From positions 87,172,001 through 87,236,000 of the forward strand of contig OX597814.1 of NCBI GenBank assembly GCA_951406725.2: a stretch of 64,000 bases of DNA. Reading direction: 5' to 3'. The position numbers and the translations under genes are program-made. The stretch comes from Octopus vulgaris (Eukaryota). This document shows, piece after piece, positions 142-50,000 of the stretch. Position 1 is the first letter of the stretch; each line of letters opens with the position of its first letter. The notes below the pieces were generated by a model, which did no database searches, was not told the DNA's origin, and saw nothing but the letters and a program-made list of their open reading frames with translations.

Positions 142-349
142 ATTTGTTGTCCAAGAATTACCTCCAACACCTTCAAAATTTCACTATATTTTTAATTTAC
201 GAGATTTGTCAAGAGTTTATAATGGTCTGTGTCGAACAATGCCAGAACGCTTTTCTGAAACTCAACAATTTCTGCGGGTGTGGAGAAATGAATGTTTACG
301 AGTTTTTGCTGATCGTTTGACCAATGAAAAAGACAAAAGTCTTGTACAA
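142..349 (+). CDS. DNAH10: DNAH10 exon 1 of window ([30 protein letters not shown]...KSLVQ)
   Basis: tttttatag| acceptor, |gtaagt donor; phase 2 in, 0 out. Confidence 0.93.
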
Positions 350-3300
350 GTAAGTTTATCTGTGAAATGTAGAGCATTATCTGTCACTCATGACTGACTT
401 TAATTAATCCATTTAACCACTGTCATTTTGGTTCCTCTTTTTCATAAACTGACTTCAATCATCTTGCAATCATTTCAATGTTGATATTGAATACAGTAGT
501 TATAGGAAAAAAAGAATACCAAAATATGGTCCCAAATGTGAAAGATACTACTAATCTACTGCTAGTAGCTTTTTGAAAATCACACATTTTTTATTGTAAC
601 TACAAAAATAGAGGAAATATATATTATTTTGAACTTGTTGAATCTGGAATAAGGAGCAGGCTTTTTGCAATCTGTGAGTTTAATGTCATTAATGTTCCAC
701 TTAAGCTATTACAAAAAAGACATAAACTGGGAGAGAGAGCATTCTAAAGGGACAGTATTCTGGAAATAAATGGTTAGTGTGAGGCCAATGGGATGAACAT
801 ATCAAATGTAATAAGAGGTAGGAAGACAAGTGGGTTGTGAGTGCCTGAGTAGTTGAGGTATAAGACCAGCCAGCTATGAAGATTAGAGAACATTAAGAAG
901 TGATAGGGAAAACAGAGAGAGAAGACAGCATGTTTGTGGACCAGAAGCTGGAGTGTATCTGATAGTGGAACAGAGTGCTTGTGGTTCAGAAGCTGAAATA
1001 TGCCAATTAGTGACTACAACTAAAATTTTTTAAAGCCTTTTTCTACTTTGTGGTATCAAAATGTTCTTGGACTAGTTATGTTCAATAAAAATTAACTCGA
1101 GGCTAGAAGGATGCCAAGAAGCAGACCAATCCAGAAAAGAAGGATTTGGAAGCTAAAGAACCCTTCACATGGTCAGAGATTTAGGGACATCCTCACTGAG
1201 AAATTTGATGAGAAGCGAGGAGGAGCTACAGACTTCAGACACAGAGGGTAACTGGAAATTCCTATGCAACAGCTTACTGAATGCCACAGAACAAATCTGT
1301 GGCTGGTGCAAAGTCCCTTCCAGACCTAGAGTAATGTGGTGGTGGAATAATACGGTAGACAAGGCTATTAGAGCAAAGAAACAGGCCTGGAAGAGCGGGG
1401 GTAGCAGGGAACTGTACCAGACAACCCGAAGAGAGGCTGGGCAACAATTATACATAGACAAGGGAGAAGCAGAAAAGAAGAAGTTTGCCAATGTTCAGCA
1501 ATGTGAGGACCAATGAATTGAAGTATTTCCGATTGCAAGACAATGTGTGAAAGAAAATTGTGATGTCACAGGAGAGAAATGTGTCAGCATGGATGATAGT
1601 GCACTTGATTTTAATGATAAAGGCTGTTGAATGTAGAAAATGAATGAGAGGAGGAGAGCTTGTTAAATGTTGACCCAGTAGAGTTAAATGAATGGGAAGA
1701 GGAGAGCCTGTTAAATGTTGACCTGCTACCCGAATAGATAGCACCCTGGTAGATAAAGCAATTAAGGATATGAAGTCAGGAAAAGTTCCCAGCCCATCAA
1801 GAATCAATGCTGAGATGCTTAAAATATCGGGTGATGTGGGTCATGGCCTAATCACCTGTATTGTAAACCAGGTAGTTCACAAAGAAGTCATACCCAATGA
1901 CTGGCGTAGTAGCACCATAGTCAGCAGCTACAAGGGTAAAGGTGATACTTTAGACAGAAATAACTACAAGGGTATCAACTTCTGGATCAGGTGATGAAGG
2001 TGATGAAGGGAGAAAGTCTGCAAAGATGTGATGCAGTTCGGTTTAGTGCCAGGTAGAAGCACCATGGATGCTATATTCCTGCAATGGTAACTACAGGAGA
2101 AATACCTAGCCAAAGATAAACCCCTATACTTGGCTTTTGTGAACTTGGAGAAAGCCTTTGACAAGGTCTCCCGATCTCTTATCTGGTGGGCGATGTGGAA
2201 ACTGGGTATTGATGAGTGGTTAATAAGAGCCGTACAGGCCTTGTACAAGGATGCCATTAGTAAGGTAAGAGTCGGCAATGAGTATAGCGAAGAATTTCGG
2301 GTAGAAGTAGGTGTTCACTAAGGATCAGCCCTCAGCCCCCTCTTATTCATCATAGTCCTCCAGGCCATAACAGAGGAATTCAAGATGGGGCTGGCCTTGG
2401 GAGCTCCTCTATGCTGATTTCAGGTGTGGAAGCAAGGTTTAGAATCGAAGGCCCTTAGAGTCAATGTTGCAAAAGTCCTAGTAAGTAGGAAGGTGAACAC
2501 ATTACAAACCCCTTCAGGTAGATGGCCCTGCTCTATCTGTAGAAAAGTTGTAGGTAGAAACTCCATAAGATGTACCCAGTGTAAGCTATGGATGCATAAC
2601 ATCAAAGGAAGCTTAACTGGGAAGATAGCTTTTGTGTGTAACAGATGTACAGGAGCAATAAACACCACAGATGCTTAGAAAACTGATTCCATCACATGCC
2701 TGGGGGAGAAACTAGAAGTACTTGATAGCTTCCGCTACCTAGGTGACCAAGTCTGTAGTGGGGGTGGATGTTCAGAGAGCATTACCACTAGAATAGGAAT
2801 AGCCTGGGCAAAGTTCAGAAAGCTCCTACCTCTATTGGTGACAAAGGGCCTTTCGCTTAGAGTGAAAGGTAGATTGTATGAAGCATGTGTGTAAAGTGCC
2901 ATGCTACACAGCAGTGAAACATGAGCCATGACTGCTGAAGACATGCATAGGCTTGAAAGAAATGAAGCTAGTATGATCTGCTGGATGTGTAATGTCAGTG
3001 TGCACACATGACAGAGTGTAAGCGCCCTGAGAGAAATGTTAGACATAAGAAGCATCAGATGTGGTGTGCAAAAGAGACAACTGCACTGGTATGGTCATGT
3101 GCTACGTATAGATGAGAACTGTGTGAAGAAGTGTCACTCCCTAACGGTGGAAGGAGCCTATGGCAGAAAGAAATCCAGGAAGACATAGGTGGTGAAGCAT
3201 GACCTTTGAACATTGGGCCTCACATAGGCAATGTAAAAAGACCGAGACCTCTGGAGATATGCTGTAATTGAAAAGACCAGGCAAGGTAAGTGAGATCACA

Positions 3301-6300
3301 GCTGTAGCCTGCACCAGTGTTGCATGACCAGCCCATTTAAAAAATACTTTTGAATTGTTGGGCAACATTCCATGCTTGAGGAGACCTATTGAGTCGAGTA
3401 AATCAAAGTCAAATCAAATTACAATCAAATAGAAATTGTAGTCGTGGCCATTACAAGTGCTGGTGACACGCAATAAGCACCATTCATTCATGCGTCTGAC
3501 TACCTCCCCATGCCAGTGGTATGTAAAAAGCACCATCCGAATATGGTCGATGCCCCCCCCCCCCCAGCCCCAACTGGCTCCTGTGCCGGTGGCATGTAAA
3601 AAGCACCATCTGAATGTGGCCGATGCCAGAGCCACCTTACTGGCTCCCCGTGCTGGTGGCACGTAAAAAGCACCATCTGAACATGGTCGATGCCATTCTC
3701 CCTGCTTTGACAGACTCCTGTGCTGGTAGCATGTAAAAAGCACCATCCAAACATGCCCGATGCCAGTGCTGCTTGACTGATTCCCATGCCAGTAGCATGG
3801 GAAAAGCACCCACTACATTCTCAGAGTGGTTGGCGTTAGAAAGGGTATCCAGCTGTAGAAACATTGCCAGATCAGATTAGAGCCTGGTGTGGCCTTTTGA
3901 CTTGCCAATCTCCAGTCCATGGAAAACGGTTGTTAAATGATGATGATGATGATGACTTTGTTTCCTTTCTCCAATTAAAGGGAAAACTTCAATTCATTAA
4001 GAACTTTTACATGTTTTTAGGTACATCACCTACTACCGCTATTGACTAATAATGTGGCAATAATTTTGATAGTGCTGTACATGCATAATATAAGTTGTAT
4101 ATTTCTCCCTTAGCTTCTTTGTTTTAAAGTCAGTAAACTTTTTGAACTTCTATTTTTAGGAACATATACGACAACTTATTACTGTGGATTATAAAAAATA
4201 TCATGACTACGTAATGAGAGATCCAATTCTATTTGGTGACTATGCTAATGCAATGTCAGGTGTAGGATTCTATGAGGATATTCAAGATCTGGACGCCTGC
4301 AAAGATTTGTTTCAAGAGGTAAAATCTATTTTCTATTCTCAGAAAATCTGAGAGATGAAAGTGGTGACTACATAATTTATTCCTCAGTTAACATTTATGA
4401 ACAGATAAAGTAAATTATAATTTGGTGTTATCAGTAAGAAAGATCCAGAAGTATAAAAAATATTGTGCTATTTTCTTCTTTTGCTGCATTTCTGTGATGT
4501 GTTAATAGAGTAGTAAAGAATGAAGGAACTATTAACTTTTATTGAGTTTTCAATTATGCTTTTTTTTTAATTAGTACCTTCTCCACTTATTGTAATAATA
4601 CGAGGGGCGTTCAATAAGTAATGTCCCTGACCCATTTCCCATAGCAGTAGAGCAACGAAACTTGGCACAGTTATTAGTCTTTTCCTACATAGGAACTACC
4701 CAGAGTTATGCATTTCTCCCATTGTTTGATACAGCTCTGGAGACCGTTTTTGTAGAAGACCCCAGCTTGGTCTTCCAGCCACGTCGTGACTTCAGAAATC
4801 AAGGCTGCATCATCTGGGAAACGCTTTCCTTTCAAAATCAACTTCATGGCTGGGAAGAGGTGAAAATCAGAGGGTGCAAGGGGAGGAGTTCATAGCTGCA
4901 CGCCTGTGCTTCTGATCTGGCGACACACGAGTTGTGGACCGAAGCGTTGTCCTGCAGGAGGAGGATGCCTTTGCTGATCTTGCCCCGCCTCTTGATTTTG
5001 ATAGCTTCTCTTAATTTCCTCAAAAGTGAAGCATAATAGGCTCCTGTAATTGTGGTACCCTTTGCCAGGAAATCTGTCATCACTACTCCGTCCTGGTCCC
5101 AGAAGACTGTGAGCATAACCTTGTCAGCGGAGGGCTGCACCCTTGCCTTCTTTGGAGGAGGTGATTCACGGTGCTTTCACTGCATTGACTGGGCTTTGGT
5201 CTATGGATCATAGTGATGGACCCAGGTTTTATCCTGTGTGATCAGTCTTTTGAAAAATATTGACTTATCTTCTTGGCACATCTCCAAATTCATCCTCGAG
5301 CACTCAACGCGTTCTTGCTTCTGGAAAGGTGTGAGCAACCTGGAAATCCATCTGGCAGACACCTTTTGCATATGCAAATGGTCATGAATGATAGTTTCCA
5401 CAGACCCGGTACTAATCTTGACCTTATGGGCTATTTGGCGAATAGTTATGCATTGACCTTCCAAAATGGCAGCCTCAACTTGACGGACAGACGTCTCATC
5501 AACGGCAGAAGGGGCGACCAGATCTGGGAGCTGTTTCCACAGAGTTCCGACTATGTTTGAATTCACAATGCCAGCGTTTTACAAGGTCATATGATGGGGC
5601 ATCATCACCATAAGTTACTTTCATTTCATCAAAAGTCTCCCGTGGTGTGCGGCCTTTCAAAAACAAAAACCAGATCACTGCTTGACACTCAACAGGCTCC
5701 ATTTCACACTTGACTCAGTTCAAACACCTGTAAATCAGAAACCACAATTAGTTCAGAGCTGTAATTCGCCACTTAATCTATAGAGGTATAAATAAGTGCA
5801 CATGCAAAATTTTAGCTAGATCAAATAACTGCAAGTGGGTCAGGGGCATTACTTATTGAACGCCCCTCGTATATAACAAAAAGTGGTATAGATGGACAAG
5901 GGAATTTATAGAAAAAAATTAAAATATATTACAGTTGGACATGCACAAGTAGGATCATTTCATCAGTTGTCAACTGCTAATCACAACAATTTCAGTACCT
6001 AAGACAATATTGTTCAGTCTGTCAGTGCCCATCGCTCATTAAATTTGCAAAGATAGAGAAGTGCATGCAAACATTGATTAAAAGGAAGTTAATAATTCAT
6101 ATCAAATTTTGTACAGAAAGTACAAAACATAAACAGGGAGATAACAATGAACGGTCTTTTGACCTGGACAATAAATGATATCATGTGAGAAATCTAGCTA
6201 CTGTAAAAATGACAGGAGAAAAAAACTTAGAACAAGCAGAAATGCTTTATGGGATGGAAGAGAAGCAGGGGATAGTAGCAGGTGAATAAAAGTAGAGTGA

Positions 6301-9300: not shown

Positions 9301-12300
9301 TTTGTATACAGATGAAGAGAAAGATGGAATTATATCACAGGTATGAATAAAAAACAAGGCAGACATTTTTTTAAAAATCAAGTAATTCTTTAATAAAAAT
9401 TTTCTTTGATATGTTGCCATAATTGTTTATATAAAATAAAGAGAAAACAGATAAGATACTATATTTTTATACTGATGGAGTTCACTAAAATATTCTACTG
9501 TGAATTTTGTGCTGTGTTTCCAATGTCTCTAAGTTTGAGTAAGTCTACTAGGCCACAATTTTTATCTAAATTCAAGTTTGATTTTTGTTGTAATTACTTC
9601 CCTCTTCATTGTTATTGCTCTTTCTCAGCACTCTTTTACACAGGATACTCCTCTGTCTTTCTTGTCATCCATGCATACAGGCATGTCCCCTACATCCCTC
9701 TTCAGCTGAGCGCTCCTAGTCTTGTGAGCCTGTAGGAGCCAGTGCCATGTAAAAAGCACCCATGTCAGTACCACATAAATCATCTAGTACACTCTGTAAA
9801 GTGGTTGGCATTAGGGAGCGCATCCAGCTGAAGAAACCATACCAAAACAGTCATGGAGCCCAGCCAGCTCTTAAGCTGACCAGTTCTTGCCAACCCATGC
9901 CAGCAAGGGAAATGGACTTTAAATGATGATGATGATGATTGTTATTGTTTGTAATAGAATGTTGGTTGCTATAGTGTGGTGGCATGTATTTTGTGTCTAC
10001 AATAAGGTTTATTGATTCCCAATTTGAATGGTTTTAATACCAATTGCTTTTACTCTCAAGAAAGGCATGAATGTTATAACTTCCAAGATATCATTATCTG
10101 AAAATTTCACATTCCATTCTTATGAAACAAAAACCCCCCAAAAACCAGTTGCTCAAAAAGATATGATTTATGCTAGGTTAAAAAAACAGATATCCATTTC
10201 TGGTTAGATAAACTTGGATAAAAATTAGGTTAGTTCTTAGAACAGTGGACTTCACAGATGACATTGCTATAAATGAAAGAGATGTGTTATGGACTGATCA
10301 ATGGATAATCATCAGCAAAGTAGATGCTAGAAATGGTAACATCAATGGTGACAATGATGACAATAAGAATGATTATGATGATGCTAATTTTTTTACTAAT
10401 TCCATGAACAATTTCACTTGTAATGTATGATAAAGACCTAGTTTTTAGTTGTATTGGCTGAAGCAATCTAACTTGCAGTAGAGCTTGATTTTTATATTTG
10501 ACTAAAACCATTTAATCAGTTATTTAATCAGTTATGTTTCTATACAATCATTTAATCAGTTAATATGTATCTATACAAGCATTTAATTTCCATATATATA
10601 TTAATTCTTGTTCTATTGTTTCAGGTCCGTGCTGAAGCTATGGCTTTAGGACTCTCTCCAGCACGAGAAACTATATGGCAATTTTTTATCAGCAAATGTT
10701 CTGATAATCTACACATTGTAATGTCAATGTCCCCAATAGGGGACACTTTGAGAACACGCTGTAGAAATTTTCCTGGTAATTATATGGAGTTTTGAAATAT
10801 TTAATTGTTTTTAGAACTGATTTGTTATCATGTTTGATGGGCTCAGGGGAGATTTTAGATAAATGATGTGTTTAAGTATTGAGATGTTTTCAAGTATTTG
10901 GAGTATGGTAGGTAAACTGAATGTTTTGTTTCTAAAACTGACTAATAGGAGAGTACAATATACTTTAAATATATTTTGCAGGCTGAGGAATTTAGACTCC
11001 TTATAATTAGTATATCATGTTTTGAAAGATTTGGGAGATGGTATGGTTAACAATTAGCAAGTAATGTATTTTGTGGATGATGTATTCAGACTAAACAGGA
11101 ATAAAGCTAGTATGATCCATTGAATATGCAATTTCAGTGTACATATATGTACTAGTGCTAGTGTAGTGAGAGAAAAGTTGGGCATAAGAGAAATTAGATG
11201 TAGCGTGCAAGAGAGAAGATGGCACTGGTGTGATGCATATGGATGAGGACAGTTGCATAAAGCAGTGCCAGTCACTTAAAGTGGATGGAACTTGTGGAAG
11301 AGGGAAACCCAGGAAGACATGAGACAAAGTATTGAAGGCCGATCTCAAGATGGAGGTGATAACAAAAGACTGAAATATCTGACACCTTGCTGTGTTTGAG
11401 AAGACCTGTCCAGGACAACAGAATTGATATCCTAAAACCACCTTAGTAAATGTGCAGAGCTCTGCCCCACCTTCTCTCTCATCACCCTTTTAGATTTTTC
11501 CCCTCATATCTCATACCCTAACGCTTCACACCTCCCTATCTTTGGTATTATTTAGCTATCATAATCAGCTGAGTATTTATCAACAAGAAATACGACAACC
11601 TGGATATACCTCCTTAGTACCAGCCACCCCAGCATCGCCTGCACCAAGATCACCATCACAAATGAACCACCACAAACAGTACTGCAAATCATCAATCCCT
11701 AACACTTCTCCATGCCTGTCTACTTGCATACTCTCCTCCCTTGTACATCACCCCTTGTGCATAACCACATGAGTGTATATGTGCATGCATGCATATCTGT
11801 GTGACTGTGCATATGCATCTGCTCACCATATACATGCGCACAGGCATACATGTGCACCTGTACATGTGCATATATGTACACATGCAAACTTGTGTGTGTG
11901 TGTGTCCATGTGCATGTACATGTGTGCACACGTGTGTGTGTGTTCGTGCACATGTGGATGTGTGAATGTACAATGAAGCACACAGACACACGTATAAGTA
12001 CAGATGCATGTATGCAGATATATGGGCATGTACATGTACATATATACGTATATGCCTCCACATCTACCGCCCCTTCCTACTTCCCCCAACTGCTTTCTTA
12101 TCCACCACATGATCAATTTCCTGTTCACCATGTGGTCGATTACCTGTTTACCATGCAGTATTTTCCAACTAATTGTTGTTGCTGAAATACCAACATCAAA
12201 CCACAATACCACGTGACCTTACTTGACCAAATGCAGGCTAACTTAATCAAACTCTCTTCAGACACCAAAGGCTGAAGACTAGCTACACACTTGAAACTCA

Positions 12301-12381: not shown

Positions 12382-13816
12382 CCTATATATATATATATAT
12401 ATATATATGGGCACATAACAAACACCATCCGATCGTGGCCGTTCGCCAGCCTCATCTGGCACCTGTGTCGGTGGCACATAAAAACACCATCCGAAGACCC
12501 GGCAAGACTAGTCAGGCCATAACCCGTGGCCCCGACCTGGGACATAGTCAGTCCACCTGTGCATACCTTCCTTCTTGTGATACTTGTGAAGGCCTGTTGA
12601 GGCAAGTGAAAATCAAAATCAAATCAAAACAAATCAAAATAGATGAACATCAATGGAATTTGTATCTTTGTGGTACCAGTGCCGGTGGCACACAAGAAAA
12701 CCATCCGAATGTGGCCGTAGCCAGTACCGTACCGACTGGCCTCCGTGCTGTGGGCACGTAACAAGCACCATCCGATCGTGGCCATTCGCCAGCCTCATCT
12801 GGCACCTGTGTCGGTGGCACATAAAAACACCATCCGAAGACCCGGCAAGACTAGTCAGGCCATAACCCGTGGCCCCTACCTGGGACGTAGTCAGTCCACC
12901 TGTGCATACCTTCCTTCTTGTGACACTTGTGAAGACCTGTTGAGGCAAGTGAAAATCAAAATCAAATCAAATCAAATCAAATCAAATCAAAACAAATCAA
13001 AATAGATGAACATCAATGGAATTTGTATCTTTGTGGTACCAGTGCCGGTGGCACACAAGAAAGCCATCCGAACGTGGCCGTAGCCAGTACCGCATCGACT
13101 GGCCTCCGTGCTCTGGGCACGTAACAAACACCATCCGATCGTGGCCGTTCGCCAGCCTCATCTGGCACCTATGTCGGTGGCACATAAAAAACACCATCCG
13201 AAGACCCGGCAAGACTAGTCAGGCCATAACCCGTGGCCCCTACCTGGGACGTAGTCAGTCCACCTGTGCATACCTTTCTTCTTGTGACACTTGTGAAGAC
13301 CTGTTGAGGCAAGTGAAAATCAAAACAAATCAAAATAGATGAACATCAATGGAATTTGTATCTTTGTGGTACCAGTGCCGGTGGCACACAAGAAAACCAT
13401 CCGAACGTGGCCGTAGCCAGTACTGCATCGACTGGCCTCCGTGCTGTGGGCACGTAACAAACACCATCCGATCGTGGCCGTCTGCCAGCCTCATCTGGCA
13501 CCTGTGTTGGTGGCACATAAAAACACCATCCGAGCGTGGCCGTCTGCCAGCCTCGTCTGGCACCTGTGTCGGTGGCACATAAAAAACACCATCCGAGCGT
13601 GGCCGTTCGCCAGCCTCGTCTGGCACCTGTGTCGGTGGCACATAAAATCACCCACTACACTCTCGGAGTGGTTGGCGTTATGAAGGGCATCCAGCTGTAG
13701 AAACACTGCCAGATCTGACTGGCCTGGTGCAGCCTTCGGGCTCCCCAGACCCCAGTTGAACCGTCCAACCCATGCTAGCATGGAAAGCGGACGTTAAATG
13801 ATGATGATGATGATGA

Positions 13817-13897
<81 letters not shown>

Positions 13898-15371: not shown

Positions 15372-16835
15372 TATTGTCTCCTTACCATGACATTATATGA
15401 TTGTTGTTAATGATTGTCACCATCATACAAGTGGTGCCCTTTGTTGCCAATCTCCAATGTCTAGGTATGGAAAAATATTACCTTGCTTGGAAATAGGTGA
15501 GGGTTGGTGACAAGAAGGGCATCCAGCTGTAGAAAATCTGTCTAAAAAATCTGTTTGAACCATGTAAGTATGGGAAAGTGGATGTTAAATGATGGGGATG
15601 ATGATGATGAGGAGGAGGATATACATAAGCCAAAAGTAAATAAGTAAATACATAAATATAAATAAATAAAATAAAATAAAACAAAAAAATGCACTGCACA
15701 TATTCTGTGCAGGAACATCTTTATATGAATAATGCAACAGAGATCCCAGACATTCAAAGCAAGTTGCTTGCTACACATGCTAAAACAACACTGAAAATGA
15801 TTTTTATAAAAATTATGAAAACAGATATTATATATTAGTAGTGATTGATATGCTAACAAGAAAACAGTGCTGGGCAATAGATAATCCTACTTCAATATAG
15901 TCAGTTGGTGTTAGAATTTGTTGCAAAATATTCCTCAAATCACTGTCTTAGGAAAAAAAGGAAAGGCACATTGGATCATGTTGTTTTGAATACACAATGC
16001 TTGAATAAAAGACAGGATAGTCATGGCAGGAATACTCTTTGATTATAGATTTACTCAGTCAGGACTTACCTGAGGCTAAACAATAATCGTAACAATGCTG
16101 TGTGTTTTTGATGATGATGATGATGATGGTGATGGTGATGGTGATGGTGATGATGATCGGAGCACTGGGCTCAATCCCATTGAAACTTCAAAACTTCTTA
16201 AGGCAACTGGAAGATTGATGTCTTGCAAAAAGCAGCCTTATTAGGCACAGCGCACATCTTAAGGAAAGTATTATCTGCCTGAGGTCTTTTTTGTGACTTG
16301 ACAGATGACTAAAGACTCCAGTGCTTTTTTAGAGCGAAGGATGAGGGGAAAATATAAAGACCGACATAAAGTGTTGGGGTATACATATACTGAAATGATT
16401 AAATAAATAAGTAAAAAATAATCTTTTCTACTAAAGGCACAAGACCTGAAATTTTGGGGAAAGGGGTAAGTCAACTACATTGACCCCAGTGTTCAACTGG
16501 TACTTAATTAATCAACCCTGAAAGGATGAAAGGTAAAGTTGACCTTGTGGAATTTGAACTCAGAACATGCAGACAGACAAAAAGCTGCTAAGCATTTCGC
16601 CCAACATGCTAACGAGTCTGTCAGCTCACTGGCACAACAATAATAATAATAATAAAGATTTGAACAGATGAATAGAGGAAATAGGCATAAAACCCAGTTT
16701 AGTACAGCTCCAGAAAACAGTGTTATTAGGGACAACTAGGGTACTGAGAAGGGTTCTTGACATATAAGGTTACTTGTAGCCCGATGTTAGGAAATTTTCT
16801 TTTCCAACAGTCTAATCTGTTGAGCATATATGAAA

Positions 16836-16919
<84 letters not shown>

Positions 16920-17424
16920 TACAATCACTACCACCACCACCACCACCACCACTTATAATAATAGTTATAATAATGATGAAGATGATGATGATGATAACAA
17001 GCATATTCTGGGATATGCCAATACACATAGATAGAGAAATAAAGGCCAATAGGCCAGATATAGTTGTCAGAGATCACCAAGAAAAAAAAATGCTTTCCAA
17101 TAGATGTCTCAATACCAATAGATAACAATGTTTTTCTAAAAGGAATGGAGAAACTTTCAAAATACAAAGATCTGGAAATAGAGGTAACTCGTATGTGGAG
17201 CCTAAAACAAAAACAATTGCATCATAGTAGGTGCATTAGGTATGATAAAAAATATTCAGGCAAATACATAACAAAAACACTAGAACTAACAAATATATAT
17301 AACATACGTAAAACACTTTCAATATAGTAAAAATAAGAGTACCACAACAAACCACAGCACATACCCAAGGCACACAATGCTGCACTTGGTAGTTCAGTGA
17401 AAGCACATGATAAAAATAAGACTA

Positions 17425-17459
<35 letters not shown>

Positions 17460-20400
17460 TAATAATAATAATAATAATAATAAGAGAGAAATATGGTCGG
17501 CGAACGAACCACCAAAAAAAAGGAGTATCAAAATAACAAACTTGGCATCTGAACAACTTTGGACCCCCATAACAACTGAAGAGGTCACCCAGGCACTGCA
17601 AAGACTAAGCAACTGGAAGGCACCTGGGCATGACAAGATCCCCAACTTCTGGTTGAAATATCTAACAGGAATGCACAAAAAGCTGGCTGAAAACTTTAAC
17701 AACGTACTAGCAGAACCAGAGACAATGCCTGAATGGCTCACGAAGGGGAAAACCATCTTAATTCCCAAATCAAATGAAACAGAAAAACCAGAAAACTACA
17801 GACCAATAACCTGCCTCCCTACTATGTTCAAGGCATTTACTGCAGTGATATCACAAAGGCTGAACAAGCACCTGGACGAAAACAAACTGTTCCCAGAAGA
17901 GCAGAAAGGATGCCGCAAAGGCTCATATGGCTGTAAAGATCAACTAATGATTAATAAAGCCATAACTGAAGACAGCCACAGAAAGAAGAAAGGCCTCAGT
18001 ATGGCCTGGATTGACTACAAAAAGGCGTTTGATAGCATCCCCCACACATGGATCCTCGAAACACTAGCCATTAACAAAGTAGCACCAACAATCATAAAAT
18101 TCATAGAGCACTCTATGAATAAATGGCAAACAGTCCTACACCTCCAAACAAAAGAGGGACTCATGAAAACCAAAGACATCCCCATTAGAAGAGGAATATT
18201 CCAGGGAGACACGCTCTCTCCACTCCTTTTCTGCTTGGCACTGTCACCTCTATCTGATATGCTAAATAGAACTGGATGCGGATATAAATGTTACGGCAAA
18301 ACGATCAGCCACCTTTTATATATGGATGACCTAAAACTATACGCTGCAAATGACAAACAGCTGGAAACACTATTAAAGACAGTTCATGGATTTACCAAAG
18401 AAATAGATAAGAAATTTGGATTAGAAAAATGCGCCAAAGTAACCATGAAAAGAGGAAAACTAGTTAAGAGTAACAACATCACACTAGATAAAACCAATGA
18501 AATAAAAGAATTAGACCAAAGCCAAACTTACAAATACTTAGGAATCCATGAACTAGATAAGACACAACACACACAAATGAAAGAGAAAATAAAAAAAGAA
18601 TATTATAGACGAGTTAGATCAATACTAAACACAGAGCTCAATGCTAAAAACAAGATAATAGGTATCAACACTTTAGCTGTCCCAGTTATAAGTTACAGCT
18701 ACAATATCCTTAACTGGACACGAAATGAACTGACCAAAATAGATAGGAAAACAAGAAAAATAATGACAGGATCTAGGATGCATCACCCAAAATCTGACAT
18801 AGAAAGACTATATATACAACGTATAGAAGGTGGTAGAGGCCTTATACAGCTGGAAAACTACTATAAAATAACCACCATAGGACTGCAAAAATATCTACTT
18901 CAGAAGGAAGGAAAACTGATCCAGATAGCGGCAAAACACGAGCAAAACAAAAAACTGTTCTCAGTATTTAAGGAAGCTGACAAATACAAACAAGAAATCA
19001 TACCACCTAATAAACATGAAGAAGAAGAAGAAGATGAAGAAACAACAAAAGCTATAAAACAAATGAAATCCAAACTAAAAATAGAACAGCAACGAACCAT
19101 GATAAAACGAGGGCAAGAAAAGCCCCTTCATGGTAAATACTGGACTAAACTAAACGCAAAAGAAATAGACAAAGAAAAATCCCAGCAATGGTTGAGAAGC
19201 TCAGGACTCAAAGCAGAAACAGAGGGATTTTTAATTGCAGCACAAGACCAAAGCCTCCCCACCAGAAATTACCAAAAACATGTAATGAAAAGAAATATTA
19301 CAAGTAACTGCAGAATATGTGGAGATGGACAAGAAACAATAAATCATATTATCTCTAGCTACCCAGTCCTGGCTAAGAAGGAATATATTCACAGACATGA
19401 CAGAGTTGGAACCTACATACATTGGAAGCTATGCCAACATTATGGAATAACAACAGAAAAAAGATGGTATAGGCACACACCAGAAAAGGTCACAGAAAAC
19501 GAGAAAGCAACCATACTCTGGGATATGCCGATACACACAGATAGAGAAATTAAGGCCAACAGACCAGATATAGTTGTCAGAGATCATGAAGAAAAAAATG
19601 CTTTCTAATTGATGTATCAATACTGGCTGATGACAACGTGTCTCTAAAAGAAATGGAGAAACTCTCAAAATACAAAGACCTGGAAATAAAGGTAACTAGA
19701 ATGTGGAATCTGAAAACAGAAACAATTCCTATCATAGTAGGTGCATTAGGCATGATAAAAAAATATTCAGACAAATACATAACAAAAACACCAGGACTTA
19801 CAAACACATATAACATACAGAAAATTGCACTACTAGGCACTGCACACATCCTACGCAGAACACTTTCCATACAATAACCATCAGAGCATCACAACAAATC
19901 ACAGCACATACCCAAGGCACACAGAGCTGTGCTCGGTAGTGAAATGAAAGCACGCTATAAAAATAAAACTACTGAATAATAATAATAATAATAATGGTTT
20001 CAAATTTTTCCACAAGGGCAGCAGTTTTGGGGGAGGGGATGAGTCGATTACATCGATCCCGATATTCAACTGATACTTATTTTATTGACCCTGAAAGGAT
20101 GTAAGACGAAGTCGACCTTGGCAGAATTTGAACTCAGAATGTAGTGACAAGCATTCTGAGTTCAAATTCGACCATGGTTTCAAATTTTAGTGTAAAGCCA
20201 ATAATTTTAGGGGCAGGTGTTAAGCCCCTAATATATTGACCACTTTTCTATGCTAGCATAGGTCAGATGGAACTTGCTGAGGCAGATTTTCTATGGCTGG
20301 GTGCCCTTCCTATCACCAACTTTGAACTGCTTCTAAGCAAGGTAATATTTTATCATAGTGAGACATGTACCTGCAGAATACTGGAAATGAATGATACCGT

Positions 20401-21337
20401 TTGTATGACAGTGACACTCATTTACAACAATAGAAAAATGTCAGGACAAGGAGACACCAAGTCTCTCTCTCTCTCTCTCACACACACATACATACATAAT
20501 GAGCTTCTTTCTATCTCCATCTACCAAATCTACTTTCAAGACATTGGTTAGCCTGGGGCCATGGTTGAAAGCACTTGCTCAAAGTTCCATGCAGTGGGAC
20601 TGAACCTGGAACCAAGTTGTTGGGAAGCAATCTTCTTAATCACACAATCATGCCTGCATCAATTAAAAAAAAAACACAGTTGGAGAAAGCAGCAAATAGT
20701 GCAAATATCAGGAAGCAATAAGTCATACATTATTAAGTTATCAAGTCTTGACTTATATGATCTCCTTATACTTTTTATATTCACTGAGTAATTTCTAAAT
20801 ATTTCCTAATCAAGCCAAATAAAATCTGGTTCAAATTTTCACTGAAAATTGTAATTAAAGGTGACCAATTCATAATATGACACTGTCTTTCTATCCTTCA
20901 GAATAAATTAATACCATCTGAACACCGTATGAATATCATTGAACATTTTGTGATGGTACATAAAATTGTCGGAGAATTTAGTCAGCAATTCATTTTGCGT
21001 TTGCGTCGTAACAATTATGTTACCCCTAAAAACTATTTGGACTTTATCTCAACTTATCTGAAACTATTAAAGGAAAAGGACCAGTTTATTAAGGGTCAGG
21101 TAAGAAAATATTTACTAATTTGAAGACTCTTATTTTCTTTCAAAGTTTCAAAGATTCTTTCTCTATGTTTCAACTTAGCAGGCTAAAACTTCAAAGTTAC
21201 TGTCAACAACATTCTTGTGCTCAATAAAAAAGATAAAACAAAATTAAAAAATCATGTATAAGAATAATATATGTATGTGTGTATGTGTGTGTGTGTGTGT
21301 GTATGTGTGTGTAAGTGAGTGTGTGTGCGTGTGCCTG

Positions 21338-21370
<33 letters not shown>

Positions 21371-21610
21371 CATCAGTATCATCATTTAGCATCTGCTTTC
21401 CTTGCTGGCATGGGTTAGACAGTTTGACTGAAACTGGTAAGCTGGAGAATTGTTCCAAATTCTGGTCTGATTTGGCATGGTTTCTATGGCTGGATGCCCT
21501 TCCTAATACCAACCACTTCAACAGTGTAATGGGTGCTTTTACATGCCACCAGCACAGGTGCCAGTTACATGACACCAGCATTGACTACAACTACAATTTC
21601 ACTTGACTTG

Positions 21611-40495: not shown

Positions 40496-41189
40496 CATAC
40501 ATGCATTCGTATATAGTGAATGCACATGTCCTAGTGGTTAGGGTGTTGCACCCATGAATGTGAGATTATGGGCTCAATTCCTAGACTGAGTAGTCTGTTG
40601 CATTCTTGAGCAAATTACTTCATCTCTTATTACTCTGCAATCATTTCAACATCTGATATGTGATACTCTGTGCACTTGTACATGCAATGTTGATTTGATG
40701 GAGGGAGTGAGCTTATGTGCAGCACAGACATTTGATCTCTATACACAAATCCTCTGTGTTGGTCATTTAACAAGAAATTGCAGGATCATCTTTTTTGGAC
40801 TCAAGAGACTACCATTAACACACACATACATGTACACACACACATACATACATACATACATGCATACATACATACATACATACATACATACATACATACA
40901 TACATACATACATACATACAAAGACAAGTGAAGGAACAACAAGCAGGCTCCTGTGCCGGTGGCACATAAAAAGCACCCATTACACCCTTGGAGTGGTTGG
41001 CATTTGGAAATGCATCCAGCTGTAGAAACTTTGCCAGATCAGATTGGAGCCTGGTGCAGCCGCTGGCTCTCCAAACCTCAATCAAACTGTCCAACCCATA
41101 CCAGCATGGAAAACGGACGTTAATCGATGATGATGATAAATATATGATTATATATATACATATGTATGTATATGATGCTGCTGCTGCTG

Positions 41190-41225
<36 letters not shown>

Positions 41226-43280
41226 ATATATAAAACTGAAATGCGTTTTTACCGCTTGTCTCTTCTCTATATATAAAACTGAAATGCGTTTTTACCGCTT
41301 GGATCGCTTTCAATGCCACTACGACCCGTCCGATTCGCTCCAAAATTTACAGGGACATGTAGAATGAGGTGACGATGCGCGTGGGCTACCTTAGAAATTC
41401 CTATCTTAAAAGGTGTGGTTGCTAGGGGCCATCTTCTTCACTCACACTATTTCCTTCTTTCCCTCTCTTACTCCCCTTCATTTATAAAGTTGACAATGTC
41501 CACTCCCGTTATTTAATGTATTCCCCTCAACTCTCTTTCACTTTGCCTTTATAAGGTCGTCAGGCGGCTTTCTTTGATGTATCTGTTTGCATTCATACGG
41601 AGAATTATCATCGCCCAATTTATGTATATGTCTTCCTCACTCACTCACTCTTTTTCCTAATGATAATTATCATCGCCACCACCACCACCACCACCACCAC
41701 CACCACCACCACCACCACCACCACCACCACCACCACCACCACCACCACCACCACCACCACACAATACTCACTCTATTTCATACAAACGGCCTTCTTTTAT
41801 GTATCTGTCTGTGTGAAAGAGAGAGATAACTGAAATTTTTTACTCGGTTTTTGTAGTGCGTGCGTGTGTATGCATGTATGTGTATATGTATGTATGCATG
41901 TATGTGTGTGTGTGTATGTATCTGTGTGTATGTGTGTATGTATGTGTATGTGTGTATGTGTGTGTATGTATGTGTGAGTGTGCATGTATGTATGTACCTT
42001 TGTCTGTTTATGTAACGGTCTGCTATGTAGAAATGAGGTTGACTCAATGGAAATGCATGCATACACACACACATACATACACACACAAACACACATAATA
42101 CACATACATACACACACACACATAGATGCAGACCTATGTTAAAAGTGCTGGCAAGTTTGCATGACAACTATTTTTTTTCCTGAAATGAAAGGCGTGACCT
42201 CTAGGACAAAATTCCTCATCTTATAAAATGTGGCCCCAGTACACCCGAATGAAATCACGTTATATTAACCAAAATGTGAAAAGGGGTATAAATGGGGCAG
42301 GAAGGGGATTAAAATTTAAAGGAGCGGGTGTTTAGGAATTCTCTGTTACATCAAGCTAAAAAATTTGCGCCAGCCTTTTAATCGTCAATGTGTTGCCGTC
42401 CATGATGAAGAAGTTTTGAATGCTTGCCATGGTGAGTCTGCTGTTGTGAAAAAGAATCACTTCAAAACTTGGTGTTTAGGGATTTTCTTTTACATCAAGT
42501 TGAAAATTTTACGCCAGCCGTTAAACTGTCAAAACGTTGCTGTCCGTCGTTAAGAAATGCCAGCCATGCTGACTCTACTACCCTCAGATTCTATCCCTTC
42601 AAACTTTGGTTTCCAATATTTTATTATTTTTATTCACCTCGCAAGTTCCTCTGTCCCTTTTAAATGTTTGTGTTTTGCTGTCTGCCTTGAAGCAGACCCT
42701 TCCGTTGTTACTGCCTGATATTTATGATTGATCTTTCTAAATATTTTATTTCTCGACTTACTCAAGATATTTTGTTGTTTATAAATGGGAAAGAGATAGA
42801 TAAAGATAGAGAGTAAGAGAAAGCGAGGGAGAGTCCGAGAGAAAGGAAGAGTAAGAGAGTGGGGAAAGTGAGAGAGAAAGGAGAGAGAAACAAAGAGGGA
42901 GAATCATCATCATCATCATCGTTTAACGTCCGTTTTCCGTGCTAGCACGGGTTGGACAGTTTGACCAGGGTCTGGGAAGCCAGGAGGCTGCACCAGGCTC
43001 CAGTCTGATCTGGCAGTGTTTCTATAGGTGGATGCCCTTCCTAACGCCAACCACTCTGTGAGCGTAGTGGGTGCATTTTTCGTGCCGCCGGCACAGGTGC
43101 CAGGGGGCTGGCAATGGCCACGATCGGTTGGTGCTTTTTACGTGTCACTGGCACAGAAGCCAGTCAAGGCGGCGCTGCAATCCGCCACGTTCGGATGGTA
43201 CTTTTTACGTGCTGAAAGGAAGCAACAGAAAGTAACAACCACACTCTTACCCGCGCGTAGAGCGGGTCACCTTCAGCTAG

Positions 43281-43313
<33 letters not shown>

Positions 43314-45033
43314 GATGATACATATATATATATATATATGGAGGCACAATGGCCCAGTGGTTAGGGCAGTGGACTCACGGTCGGAGGATCGCGGTTTCGA
43401 TTCCCAGATTGGGCATTGTGTATGTTTATTGAGTGAAAACACCTAAAAGCTCCACGAGGCTCCAGCAGGGGGTGGTGGCGACCTCTGTTGTACTCTTCTG
43501 TCACAACTTTCTCTCCCTCTTTCTTTTGTTGGCCTGCTCGCTTAGCCAGCGGGGTGGCACCATTTGAAGGCTAAAACAATGCGAAGTGCATTGTGACCAG
43601 CGATGTGTAGCAACATCTGATAGCCTGGTCGGTCACGTGATCACATGATATATATATATATATATAAAGGAGTACTACATCAGTTATGACAACGAGGGTC
43701 CCAGCTGATAAGACCAATGGAACAGCTTGCTCATGAAATTAACATGCATGTGGCTGAGCACTCCACAGACGCATGTACCCTTAACATAGTTCTCAGGGAG
43801 ATTTAGCATGACAGAGTGTGACAAGGCTGGCCCTTTGAAATACAGGTACTACCCATTTTTGCCAGCTGAGTGGACTGTTTATTTCATATAAATATAAATA
43901 TATATATATTTTTAGTAATCTTAGATTTTATCTTTGTACTACGTAACAATATTGTTTATATGCCATCATCTATAGTACCCCATGATAATCTCCTCTGTAT
44001 TAACATCATAGGTTTTATTCACATCTTGCCCCTTTAACTGGTAATTAACATCTTGATTTGGGGTCTTCTCCTACCTAGCCTCCTTTATAGACAGTTACTT
44101 ATACAAATTCTAAAATCCTTACAATATCTATGACGATACCCAACTATAAACTGCGACTCACTCTTGCCCTTCATTCTAAACAGACACTGTCCTCTAGCCT
44201 TAGATTTAGTAGTTGATAAAATAAGACTAATAAATTAAAAATGAACCACAATGAACCAAGTAATGACCTCATTCTCATTGGTGTTGTGCAATAGGGTGAG
44301 GTCTGAGGCGTTTCTGATGCTGTTACAGATCTTCCTGATGAGCTGCTTAGTCACCTGGCTGATCTCAAACTTTACCAGGTATATCAGCCTGCATTTGGGT
44401 TAAGAGGCAAAGTTAGGCTTATGATCTTTGATTATTATGAAGACCACTCTTTTTGCCAGAGTCTCTATCCTATCTTCTATACCTAATTTAATAGCTATAT
44501 CTTTGGCCTCCTGGTTAATATAATCATATGTGTTGGAGGTGGCCCTCCTGTATGTTTGTGTGATGGCCACAGTTAAATGACTGGTACCAGTGCCGGTGGC
44601 ACACAAGAAAACCATCCGAACGTGGCCGTAGCCAGTACCGCATCGACTGGCCTCCGTGCTGTGGGCACGTAACAAACACCATCCGATCGTGGCCGTTTGC
44701 CAGCCTCATCTGGCACTTGTGTCGGTGGCACATAAAAACACCATCCGAGCGTGGCTGTCTGCCAGCCTCGTCTGGCACCTGTGTTGGTGGCACATAAAAA
44801 ACACCATCCGAGCGTGGCCGTTCGCCAGCCTCGTCTGGCACCTGTGTCGGTGGCACATAAAATCACCCACTACACTCTCGGAGTGGTTGGCGTTAGGAAG
44901 GGCATCCAGCTGTAGAAACACTGCCAGATCTGACTGGCCTGGTGCAGCCTTCGGGCTCCCCAGACCCCAGTTGAACCGTCCAACCCATGCTAGCATGGAA
45001 AGCGGACGTTAAATGATGATGATGATGATGATG

Positions 45034-45109
<76 letters not shown>

Positions 45110-47030: not shown

Positions 47031-50000
47031 TTATATATGTATAACTTAGCAGTTTGGCAAAAGAGATTGATTGAATAAGTACTAGTCCTGGTGTTGATTT
47101 ATTTTACTAAAAACCCTTTAAAGTGGTGTTCCAGCATGGCTGCAGTCAAATAACTGAAATATGTTAAAGAATAATAGAAAGAAAGAGTGTTTGGTATTAG
47201 GAAGGGCATCTAGCTGTAAAAAAGCCCTGCCAAAATACAGTATCCTGAGTAGTCTTCTACATGGCCGGCTCCTGTCAACCATCCTACCCATGCATGCATG
47301 GAAGTCAGACATTAAATAGTGACGATGATGATAATACAGTCTTATTAAATAAAAGTCCTTTGAGTGGAAACTGAGGCAGGAATTGTCCAAATGAATGCAT
47401 GCAGTTCTAAGACCAGTGCTTGATAATAAACTTGCAAATATCAATTATACACTAACATGCATATTCAATAGCAAATGAAAGTCATACACTGATGTATGCA
47501 ATTAACAGCCATACACAGACACACATACCTTACACCAAAGGAAAACTATACAAAACCTCAAAATTTTCATTTGGTCCAGTATTTGATAAATGCTGGATAA
47601 AGTGAAGTGCAAGTTGATTCATCTTTTAGTATATGGTTTTGTACGTTTTTTTTTTTCAAACTAAACTCAAGTCAGTTTCTGATTTTGGAGAATATTTTTA
47701 AATTTAAAAAAAACAAAAAAAAAATGATGGCAGTGATAAACATTGCTGTGGGCTGTACGTTTGATATCTCTGGACTAAGGGATGGAAAATATCTTAAGTT
47801 CCAAATATGCAAATATCTAACTAATACTTGCACTGACAAAATAAATAAGAAACAGTTAAATTTAAAACAAAAGTGAGTATTTTAGGAATCTTTAAGTGAT
47901 TGATAGTTACATTTCATACAGCAAAAATATTAATTACATTTGTGACCTTTACAAGCTAGAACCAAAATATTACATTTTTATTTCTGTAGTGAGCCAATCC
48001 ATTATATAAGATACTTTACTAACACTGATATTTCTCATGGCTTCTTTAAAACCTGCTATTCTTCAGGGGTTGGAAGATCAGTTGTTAAGTGTGATTGTCA
48101 AATTTGAAAGGAAAGAACTGGAAGAGCAGAGAGAAAGACTTATTCAAGTAACAAGGTGAGTATTCATTTTAATTTGTGAAAAACCAGTGTCCTACTCAGA
48201 GACAGACTTGAATCTCATTTGTTTACTATTAAGAAAGTCAAATTGTTTAAACTTACATGGTTCAAGACTGGAAAAAAAAACTTGCTAATTAAAAAGTTTG
48301 ATTAATTAACTATAGATATGCTTTACATTAACAGTGAAAACAAACGATTACTGAAAGATCTGGAAGATTCCTTGCTAAGAGAATTGGCAACATCTCAAGG
48401 CAACATGTTGGACAATGTTGAACTGGTGTCTACATTAGAGGAAACGAAAACTAAAGCAACAGAGGTCAGTAATTATTATCAATAATGTTTTAACTTTTTT
48501 TTTTTACTGTATTTCTGTTGAAATACATTTCCTTTATTACGGTTAATTTTGAAAATAATGAACACTTTAGTAAAATAACTTTGTCTTCATTAAATCGGTG
48601 TTTAGAGCATAGACATGAGATTTTGATGGAATTTAATTTTAGGAAGTTTGTATTATAGAGCCAAAGGTGGTTTCAGGCAGGTTGGTATCAAAAGGGTTAA
48701 CGCTTTTTCATCAAACTTGTATACAAAGGAATGCTGAAAGTTCCTGCTTTTGTGTAGAAGAAAATACAGGAGGATCAATTATGGTTTTATTCAACATATT
48801 CATTTCAGATTTACACACTTATTGCAGCAGTCCTTCAGTTTTTCTAAGTCCTGTAAAAGAACTCAGAAGGTTGGACCTCCAACCAGGCCTTCTGCAATAC
48901 CCTTTTAATAATGGAAGGCAAGGTTTATGATATCGGAGGAATATCAGAGATTAAAGCTAGTTATTTTGTAATATTTTGCTTTGTGCTGGTGGCACATAAA
49001 AATGCTGGTGGCATGTGAAAAAACATTCGAGCGAGGTTGTTGTCAGTGCAGCTGGACTGGCACCTGTGCAGGTAGCATGTAAAAAACACCATTTGAGTGT
49101 GACCATTGCCAATACCACCTGACTGGCACGTAAAAGCACCCACCACACTCTTGGAGTGGTTGGCATTAGGATGGGCATCCAGCTGAAGAAACTCTGCCAG
49201 ATCAGATTGGAGCCTGGTGCAGCCATCTGGTTCGCCAGTCCTTAGTCAAATCGTCCAACCTATGCTAGCATGGAAAGTGGATGTTAAACAACGGTGATGA
49301 TGATGATGCTCAGAACTATGATCTTTCCATGATTCCATGACCAATCAAGTACATTCCTGCAATATTCTGGTGAAATAAATGAGCTAAACTCACTTCTATC
49401 TACCAAAACATGAGTTTCTGTAATAAAAGGAAGTTAGTAGTTCTTGACTCATTTCTGTTATGATGACCATTTACTAGATTAATTCTGATTCCCAGTTACA
49501 ACAATCACTTTACAGAATTGCATATAAATTACTTCTTATTTCACCTCTCTTTTCAGGAAGCTTTTCCTAATATATTTCAAGAGTTCTTTTTCCATTCACA
49601 AAATATTTACTCTCTTATTATATCATTTTGACTGTACCAATTTTATTTGTTACTCGCATTTTATAATTTGTAAGGCTCTTAGTAGGCTGTAGGAAAGGCT
49701 TTTTTCCTCGGACATGATAAAAAATTAGAATATATATATATATATATTTATTTCTTCTTCTTAAATCTTTACATTCAGGTTATTGAGAAACTTGCTTTAG
49801 GAGAGAAGACAGCAAAAGATATTGATAAACTACGGGATGGTTATCGGCCAGCGGCAAAACGTGGTGCTGTCTTATTTTTTGTCCTGGCTGAAATGTCTGT
49901 GATAGACAACATGTACCAGTACTCCCTGTCAGCTTACTTACATGTATTCAGACATTCACTGAAAAAGTCCATGCCTGATGCTGTTCTGATAAAACGTCTG

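What the first reader, a model, noticed from the sequence alone, without database searches (positions are those of the whole stretch)
3457..3811. RTE 3' UTR is an array of tandem H-type pseudoknots separated by variable-loop hairpins
Seen: about 6 units of 60-70 nt here, and 1-5 units in other copies (13367-13652, 44581-44867, 48980, 40948, 42903 on the minus strand). Each unit reads GUGC-Y-GGUG-GCAC-[A-rich 6-8 nt]-CACC: stem 1 GUGC/GCAC, a 1-nt loop, stem 2 GGUG/CACC and an A-rich loop. It is followed by auccgaNcguggccg and a GCCAG..CUGGC hairpin whose 6-15 nt loop differs between units. The outer stem-1 pair covaries (c-GTGC..GCAC-g versus t-GTGT..GCAC-a). Established: this topology resembles compact luteovirus-type pseudoknots, and tandem 3'-UTR pseudoknots in tobamoviruses substitute for a poly(A) tail; these elements end in (GAT)n rather than poly(A). 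Inference: a modular, copy-number-variable RNA device for translation, stability or RT loading. I know of no description of it in a LINE.
Basis: partly seen in the sequence, partly recalled or inferred. Interest (0 to 1): 0.8.

Follow-up and report, generated by a model that had tools for sequence, protein, structure and literature searches.

The report
Repeat array in RTE retrotransposon tail
An octopus-type jumping gene carries, behind its coding region, 5-6 copies of a 60-70 letter unit that could fold into small RNA knots, but the better-supported knot is a single ancient one next to the array that normally sits at the front end of such elements.

Summary
The array is real: six 53-73 nt units at 3457-3810 behind a decayed RTE-clade ORF, and 34 units tabulated in the window. 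The unit pseudoknot is plausible but unproven. Stem 2 shows no compensatory change (0 of 4 pairs, 18 units), the cited stem-1 'covariation' is what CpG decay gives unaided, and pseudoknot and plain hairpin are about equal in energy. In its favour, common variants in four public runs avoid stem 2 and the GCCAG/CTGGC stem (0 of 19 in 80 of 282 positions). It joins a 38-nt block from RTE 5' UTRs (86-90% to L005; also in hagfish RTE-2/4_EBu) to the last codons and terminal stem-loop of an RTE ORF. That block covaries (4 pairs changed on both sides, 0/500 shuffles on score) and keeps a loop partner in 7 of 7 element types: an ancient pseudoknot, just upstream of the RTE start codon, which I did not find described. 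Best reading: a SINE-like RNP/ribosome-recruiting module captured into a LINE 3' UTR, with a weakly constrained amplified unit. A tobamovirus-like poly(A) substitute is unsupported. New variant of a known kind; interest 0.45.

The parts
1090..3290 (+). 5'-truncated, decayed RTE-clade ORF (endonuclease remnant, RT, PHD-like Cys insert), ending ...EKTRQGK*
   Evidence: RVT_1 E 1.6e-10; 70% to proteins named Octopus vulgaris / O. bimaculoides; relatives carry RVT_1 + PHD; 42% to L005 RTE
3291..3432 (+). ORF-proximal spacer (~110 nt) and (AAATC)n-like microsatellite; homologous to the B-subfamily spacer at 12836-13010
   Evidence: local score 128 vs best shuffle 94
3457..3810 (+). Array of six units (A1-A6): S1 hairpin / candidate H-type pseudoknot, ATCCGANCGTGGCCG linker, GCCAG..CTGGC variable-loop hairpin; CpG-decayed
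3831..3868 (+). RTE 5'-UTR block (P1, mid pair, P2, loop pairing with TGCC after an A-rich linker); two substitutions in this copy
   Evidence: (86% over 42 nt to L005 3996-4037)
3869..3955 (+). Hairpins, RTE 3'-end remnant (partly deleted here) and (TGA)n tail
12410..13366 (+). B subfamily: three 363-bp-period segments (ORF end, spacer, (AAATC)n, units 1-3) joined at a CCGAA microhomology
   Evidence: go-back joints to 13200/13201 at depth 2965-7062 in runs X1 and X3
13367..13820 (+). B subfamily: five units, block, RTE 3' end, (TGA)n
   Evidence: (98.5% to 44581-45035)
44581..44867 (+). Young B copy, five units, 5'-truncated at unit 1
44888..44925 (+). Intact RTE 5'-UTR block: candidate conserved pseudoknot
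44975..45035 (+). RTE 3' end: reads [11 protein letters not shown] in one frame, folds as a stem-loop, then (TGA)n
42903..43212 (-). Truncated copy: 2.5 units, block, tail
48982..49308 (+). Decayed copy with internally deleted or duplicated units, block, tail
40946..41137 (+). Truncated copy: one unit, block, tail
21369..21600 (-). Copy with the spacer-array junction but only two units (internal deletion)

Best explanation
The 3' end of this octopus-type RTE is a composite. The ORF stops at the codons where related RTEs go on into ...[11 protein letters not shown], and those last codons reappear about 600 nt downstream as the terminal stem-loop before (TGA)n. In between lie a spacer, a microsatellite, the unit array and a 38-nt block from RTE 5' UTRs. 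So a bipartite, SINE-like RTE derivative (5'-UTR piece + 3' end) was joined into the LINE's end, most likely by template switching or recombination (inferred), and has been copied with it since. Working parts, by inference: the terminal stem-loop and (UGA)n are recognised by the RT and prime TPRT; the block folds as a conserved pseudoknot that in its native place, about 10 nt before the ORF start codon, most likely binds the ribosome or the ORF protein, and here helps full-length and truncated RNAs capture the RT, as SINE bodies are thought to. The 60-70 nt unit was amplified by slippage or template jumps at short repeats. It folds as an S1 hairpin in balance with a marginal H-type pseudoknot, plus a hairpin with a free loop, and is weakly selected in active master copies as an additive helper for RNA stability or RNP assembly. 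It serves the transposon, not the host. Shown: composite anatomy, homology of block and tail, covariation of the block's stem. Inferred: all folding in vivo and all function.
For: Tail: reads [11 protein letters not shown] / RASTENGR*; 7 of 120 homologous proteins end in this kind of motif; the L005 ORF runs straight into a matching tail, as does a second RTE at window 50790-50910. [quoted passage not shown] Block structure: 13 sequences, 87% of cells paired, 4 pairs with two-sided change, 0/500 shuffles reach the covariation score, slid controls 24-43%; the loop partner lies 5-11 nt downstream in 7 of 7 element types against 2 of 8 chance matches, and by eye in all 7 hagfish occurrences. Unit: of 19 listed common variants in the array none is in S2 or the hairpin stems (expected 5.4, hypergeometric P 0.001), 6 are in loop 3 (expected 2.2, P 0.012), and 4 of the 5 in S1 keep pairing; hairpin loops of 4-11 nt differ wholly between intact units while the stem does not.
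Against: No two-sided change in the unit's S2 nor in the block's pseudoknot helix. Only 40 of 130 variant rows were shown, units are paralogues and not independent, and S2 and the hairpin stems are poor in CpG, so the depletion is weak evidence. Nested folds of the arrays are no better than shuffles (z -0.32 and -1.15), and S1 has probability 0.01-0.11 in 4 of 5 B units in the nested ensemble. A 4-bp partner with G-U allowed arises by chance about one time in three at that distance (exact CACC 1-6%). Homology of the unit itself to an RTE 5' UTR is not shown: no HMM hit in 41.7 kb of foreign loci (best E 4.4); anchored alignments to L005b reach 4-5 of 300 shuffles in 2 of 18 comparisons, and an unrelated SINE reaches 2 of 300. 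In L005's first element the block lies in an open frame from an upstream ATG. The block sequences are related, so the shuffle counts are not probabilities. No experiment.
Confidence: 0.5

Rival explanations
1. Neutral minisatellite: the composite origin holds, but the unit is a passenger amplified by slippage at its internal TGGCAC repeat; it forms at most a hairpin and has no function.
For: No S2 covariation; the hairpin-only model fits as well (93.5% paired, Y-G closing pair kept in 16 of 18 units); 2 of 5 B master units lose an S2 pair; no folding excess; private copies delete or duplicate unit parts at short repeats; other element types carry the block without any array.
Against: Common variants avoid S2 and hairpin stems and gather in loop 3; hairpin loops turn over in length and sequence inside an unchanged stem; B1 and B2 both keep a 3-bp S2; the array persists in subfamilies about 70% identical.
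Confidence: 0.3
2. One reading: tandem pseudoknots replace a poly(A) tail and boost translation or stability of a non-polyadenylated RTE RNA, as in tobamoviruses.
For: Position in the 3' UTR, tandem layout, feasible topology; ribozyme-cleaved, uncapped RTE RNA is translated in reporters (PMC8501958), so unusual translation aids are plausible.
Against: Related RTEs with short-repeat tails have no array (L004, L005, L008; no unit HMM hit); the polyadenylation state is unknown; no Rfam match to any viral pseudoknot family even at E up to 10.
Confidence: 0.1
3. The unit is a small self-cleaving ribozyme or the relic of one: it occupies the slot just upstream of the block, where RTE 5' ends carry ribozymes, and has a conserved 15-nt linker and a variable peripheral hairpin.
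For: In hagfish RTE-2_EBu a twister-like stretch directly precedes the block (identification recalled, not tested); RTE 5' ends carry HDV-like or twister ribozymes; the linker can form a 3-bp stem with an 8-nt loop reminiscent of HDV P3/L3 (by eye).
Against: No Rfam ribozyme hit; my HDV descriptor finds nothing and there is no hammerhead core (descriptor had no positive control); the P1.1 and J4/2 equivalents are absent by eye; cleavage inside the 3' UTR would separate the ORF from the tail.
Confidence: 0.07

Closest known systems
Bipartite RTE derivatives and RTE-mobilised SINEs (Kojima 2018, PMC5786205; hagfish SINE1-1_EBu, SINE2-1/9/10_EBu with RTE-2/4_EBu, PMC7245038)
   Same: A middle piece of an RTE 5' UTR joined to an RTE 3' end with a short-repeat tail; the very same block sequence occurs in the hagfish elements.
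   Different: Here the module is fused behind the ORF of an autonomous-type RTE rather than behind a tRNA or 7SL head, and is preceded by a 5-6 unit array; the parts of those papers that I read treat sequence, not a pseudoknot.
R2Tg 3' UTR pseudoknot (PMC12222951)
   Same: A small pseudoknot in the 3' UTR of a non-LTR retrotransposon, bound by the RT to start TPRT.
   Different: Single, in the last 67 nt, R2 clade, solved by cryo-EM; here RTE clade, tandem, 160-500 nt from the end, predicted only.
Octopus RTE-2_OV (PMC9115989)
   Same: Octopus RTE-clade LINE with a zinc finger and a 3' UTR of about 600 nt made mostly of repeats.
   Different: Its 3' UTR is called a microsatellite; by eye the listed primers did not recall this ORF and a motif search of 4 of 8 supplement files found nothing, so identity is untested and I think unlikely.
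Luteovirus/polerovirus frameshift pseudoknots and tobamovirus upstream pseudoknot domain (recalled)
   Same: Compact H-type topology, short loop 1, A-rich loop 3; tandem layout in a 3' UTR.
   Different: Outside any ORF; S2 4 bp with a 1-nt loop 1; units separated by about 35 nt; no Rfam match; no covariation.

Membership tests
RTE-clade non-LTR retrotransposon | Single ORF with APE endonuclease and RT, similar to RTE proteins | tested here: met
   RVT_1; 612 relatives at E<=1e-20; 42% to the 1139-aa EN+RT ORF of L005. The endonuclease part is truncated in this copy and no tree was built.
RTE-clade non-LTR retrotransposon | Short tandem-repeat tail after a terminal stem-loop | tested here: met
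   (TGA)n after the CGTCC/GGACG stem; same layout in L005.
Bipartite RTE derivative | Segment from an RTE 5' UTR | tested here: met
   42 nt at 86-90% to L005 upstream of its ATG; hagfish RTE-2/4_EBu.
Bipartite RTE derivative | Joined to an RTE 3' end with the ORF deleted in between | tested here: met
   About 50 nt separate the block from the ORF-terminal codons.
Bipartite RTE derivative | Moves as an independent non-autonomous element with its own 5' end or small-RNA head | tested here: inconclusive
   All window copies are fused to the spacer or cut inside the module; the tail is about ten times deeper than the spacer in public contigs, which truncation and other SINEs also explain; no head among the 24 loose ends shown of about 2200.
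H-type pseudoknot (unit) | Two interleaved stems with feasible loops | tested here: met
   S1 4-5 bp, S2 3-4 bp, loop 1 1-2 nt, loop 3 5-9 nt in 8 of 8 units scored; steric fit of a 1-nt loop over 4 bp not modelled.
H-type pseudoknot (unit) | Compensatory changes in both stems | tested here: not met
   S2 0 of 4 pairs; S1 changes explained by CpG decay.
H-type pseudoknot (unit) | Forms in solution | not testable with these tools
   Needs probing or NMR.
H-type pseudoknot (RTE 5'-UTR block) | Covarying stem 1 | tested here: met
   4 of 8 pairs with two-sided change.
H-type pseudoknot (RTE 5'-UTR block) | Covarying loop-to-downstream helix | tested here: inconclusive
   Partner kept at 5-11 nt with one-sided G-C/G-U changes in 7 of 7 element types, but the loop is invariant.
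Tobamovirus-type poly(A)-substituting pseudoknot domain | Non-polyadenylated RNA with translation enhancement | not testable with these tools
   Contigs show no RNA ends; no Rfam match.
HDV-like / twister / hammerhead ribozyme | Core motif and fold | tested here: not met
   Rfam none; own descriptor none, without positive control.

The most novel reading that the evidence does not exclude
RTE retrotransposons from hagfish to molluscs carry an undescribed, covarying pseudoknot about 10 nt before their start codon that recruits the ribosome to ribozyme-cleaved, uncapped RNA; SINEs borrow it as an RTE counterpart of the Alu domain; and this octopus LINE has moved it to its 3' UTR and amplified a miniature pseudoknot in front of it as a dose-dependent 3' enhancer, which would help explain why this tail is one of the deepest repeats in these genomes.
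Probability: 0.2. Interest if true: 0.75.

Novelty: new variant of a known kind. Interest (0 to 1): 0.45.

Why it matters
Why SINE 'middle bodies' taken from RTE 5' UTRs are so conserved is an open question (PMC5786205 speculates on function without a structure in the parts read). The block here gives a concrete, testable RNA fold with covariation, in a repeat laid by 43,000-115,000 contigs per run in four organisms. If the units prove to be selected pseudoknots, this is a LINE that tunes an RNA module by copy number. If not, it is still a clear case of a LINE that swapped its 3' end for a SINE-like module, and a warning that CpG decay mimics covariation in palindromic stems.

Tried and rejected
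No whole genome is held, so no genome-wide phased alignment. Rfam: 0 at gathering in the window; only chance hits at E up to 10 in two arrays and in 4 foreign loci at E up to 1. Unit pattern: 1 hit in viral contigs and 2 in metagenome contigs, all single matches without array or tail, read as chance. Block patterns in viral contigs: 0, 0 and 3 chance hits. RTE protein in viral contigs: none. The 2-mismatch block search in 5 genomes gave mainly chance matches and one further 1-mismatch copy that I did not fetch. Unit HMM on 11 foreign loci: nothing. HDV-like, hammerhead, twister and pistol readings of the unit were considered by eye and by descriptor and rejected. An alternative helix, GUGY with the distal RCAC, changes C-G to U-A between A and B3/B4 but is broken in B1, B2, B5 and E3; kept only as a lead. 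No convincing target-site duplication for 6 copies. One search had the pseudoknot bracket one column off; one search is the corrected count. Motif searches of supplements found nothing in PMC9115989 (files 5-8 not searched), PMC5786205, PMC4824008 (file 1 not searched) and PMC11481361; alignments there may be pictures or split by gaps. The octopus genome paper PMC4795812 is not held; whether this family is the 'Twitch', OK or OR SINE (names recalled) is untested (one search found nothing). Four look-ups of earlier findings returned nothing.

Full report
Setting. The window is animal DNA rich in microsatellites, within a dynein heavy chain gene. No genome is held. The closest named proteins to the broken ORF are from Octopus vulgaris and O. 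bimaculoides at 70%, so I call it octopus-type. Four coded organisms hold the repeat.

Observation. The array is real. Six units start at 3457, 3510, 3583, 3650, 3720 and 3786. A unit profile finds full units at E 1e-5 to 1e-17 against a best of E 1.7 in the reversed window, and I tabulated 34 units. The B copies at 13367 and 44581 are 98.5% identical and show five distinct master units.

Is the unit a pseudoknot? On 18 units, S1 is 94% paired and S2 84%; 25 of 500 shuffles reach the paired share and 13 of 500 the covariation score. S2 has no two-sided change. The outer S1 pair is U-G 6, C-G 5, U-A 4, unpaired 3; both partners are in CpG, so decay alone gives this, and the only two-sided S1 change (G-C to A-U) is the other decay product. 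The hairpin-only reading with a Y-G pair over a 3-nt loop fits as well. With a simple Dirks-Pierce-style penalty of my own choosing, without triples or coaxial stacking, the best pseudoknot is -6.9, -5.8, -5.8 and -6.6 kcal/mol against hairpins of -6.9, -5.1, -5.1 and -7.8 for A4, B3, B5 and D1, and 1.5-4.9 worse than the hairpin for A3, B1, B2 and C3 (its shuffle test is post hoc). Nested folds of whole arrays do not beat shuffles (z -0.32, -1.15) and give S1 probability 0.01-0.11 in 4 of 5 B units. In favour: in 326,000 contigs laid from four runs, the 19 listed variants inside the array include none in S2 or the hairpin stems (80 of 282 positions, expected 5.4, P 0.001; S2 alone P 0.049) and 6 in loop 3 (P 0.012), and 4 of the 5 in S1 keep pairing. 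Only 40 of 130 rows were shown, the data are unphased, the units are paralogues and CpG content is uneven, so this is modest. The GCCAG/CTGGC stem stays fixed around loops of 4-11 nt with unrelated sequence in intact units. I put the odds that the unit pseudoknot forms at a little over even, and that it is selected at about even.

What the region is. The last 36 nt before (TGA)n translate as [11 protein letters not shown] (44581 copy) and match the C-termini of related RTE proteins such as P0004 (7 of 120 hits end this way). In L005, and in a second RTE at window 50790-50910, the ORF runs straight into this tail. In the array-bearing family the ORF stops at EKTRQGK* (A) or KTRQD* (B), at the codons that precede that motif, and about 600 nt intervene. 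The 42 nt after the last unit's hairpin match L005 3996-4037 at 86% (A) and 90% (B); there the block ends 11 nt before the ATG of an RTE ORF. It also occurs near the start of L005's other RTE (inside an open frame from an upstream ATG, so 'UTR' is less sure there), after a tRNA head in L006/L024, in L007/L026 and in other short elements of the window. [quoted passage not shown] Block plus tail is therefore a bipartite RTE derivative in the sense of Kojima 2018, here fused behind an RTE ORF, spacer and (AAATC)n. The spacer is homologous between A and B, so the fusion predates their split.

The block's structure. Thirteen block sequences give a 4-bp lower stem, a single mid pair (U-A in 6, C-G in 5), a 3-bp upper stem and a 6-nt loop: 87% of cells paired, 4 pairs changed on both sides, 0 of 500 shuffles at the observed score, slid controls 24-43% (one search was misbracketed). 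The loop has a 4-5 bp partner 5-11 nt downstream after an A-rich linker in 7 of 7 element types, against 2 of 8 chance matches in prokaryote or viral contigs, and by eye in all 7 hagfish occurrences. The loop is invariant, so this helix shows only one-sided changes, and the sequences are related. Alone the block does not fold well in a nested model (z 0.69), as expected if a pseudoknot is needed. No Rfam family matches.

Origin of the unit. Not settled. It has the same topology as the block and sits where RTE 5' ends carry ribozymes. Alignment to the L005 5' UTR is colinear but not significant after 18 comparisons. Known ribozyme readings fail.

Mechanism. Most likely (0.5): the terminal stem-loop and (UGA)n prime TPRT; the block, an initiation-site or RT-binding pseudoknot in its native place, helps the RNA capture ribosome-bound RT; the units are an amplified, weakly selected structured helper. 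Rivals: neutral minisatellite (0.3), poly(A) substitute (0.1), ribozyme or relic (0.07). Related RTEs with short-repeat tails lack arrays, which speaks against a needed poly(A) substitute.

Literature seen. Passages of PMC4758252, PMC9115989, PMC8967140, PMC12222951, PMC7245038 (supplement passages 91, 96) and PMC8501958; part 1 of 3 of PMC13282606; part 2 of 6 of PMC4824008; parts 2-4 of 5 of PMC5786205; supplement search only for PMC11481361. A 3'-UTR pseudoknot in a non-LTR element is known for R2Tg. Nine searches (listings only unless named above) showed no description of this array or of a pseudoknot in the RTE 5'-UTR block. Subscription papers on octopus SINEs, the octopus genome paper and Repbase are not held, and unsearched supplement files may bear on this. 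Dimensions of viral pseudoknots and the twister identification are recalled.

Verdict. Observation partly confirmed, interpretation partly supported. New variant of a known kind; interest 0.45. The strongest lead is the conserved block, not the array.

Noticed in passing
window 191-349 and 4160-4321 (+): Exons of a dynein heavy chain gene (DYN_lid E 2.8e-10 for the first, no Pfam hit for the second); the RTE copy lies in sense orientation between them.
   Followed up: partly
window 12410-13366: The 363-bp duplication of the 3' UTR joins a unit back to the ORF end at a 5-nt microhomology; similar go-back joints have depths of thousands in runs X1 and X3, so it looks like a multi-copy subfamily or a recurrent template jump.
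   Followed up: partly
window 20230-20420 (-), 15430-15610 (+), 53990-54040 (-): Other short elements carry the same block (the first two also the RTE tail) without the array.
   Followed up: partly
window 50500-50910 (+), 11097-11420 (+): Remnants of other RTE families; in the first the ORF runs directly into the terminal stem-loop, the presumed ancestral layout.
   Followed up: partly
window 17401-19608 (+): 735-aa open frame of a different LINE (RVT_1 E 1e-31, weak zf-RVT); the C-terminus looks like a restriction-like endonuclease of R4/Dong type (recalled).
   Followed up: no
L005 (contig in a Terriglobia MAG); also L004, L006-L009: Animal-like RTE and SINE contigs sit as apparent contamination in several prokaryote genome records; L005 has an intact 1139-aa RTE ORF followed by the start of a second RTE.
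   Followed up: partly
L005 3720-3835 and 3900-3935: Structured region (z -2.5) and a second candidate H-type pseudoknot upstream of the block in this RTE 5' UTR; by eye colinear with the octopus unit, not significant.
   Followed up: partly
L020/L024 (G003 contig C25): A complete tRNA-headed SINE of about 190 nt with the block right after the head and apparent target-site duplications.
   Followed up: no
PMC7245038 supplement, RTE-4_EBu 5' end: By eye its first 60 nt share ordered short words with the octopus unit, including a GGTG...CACC helix; could be the unit's origin; not testable here.
   Followed up: no
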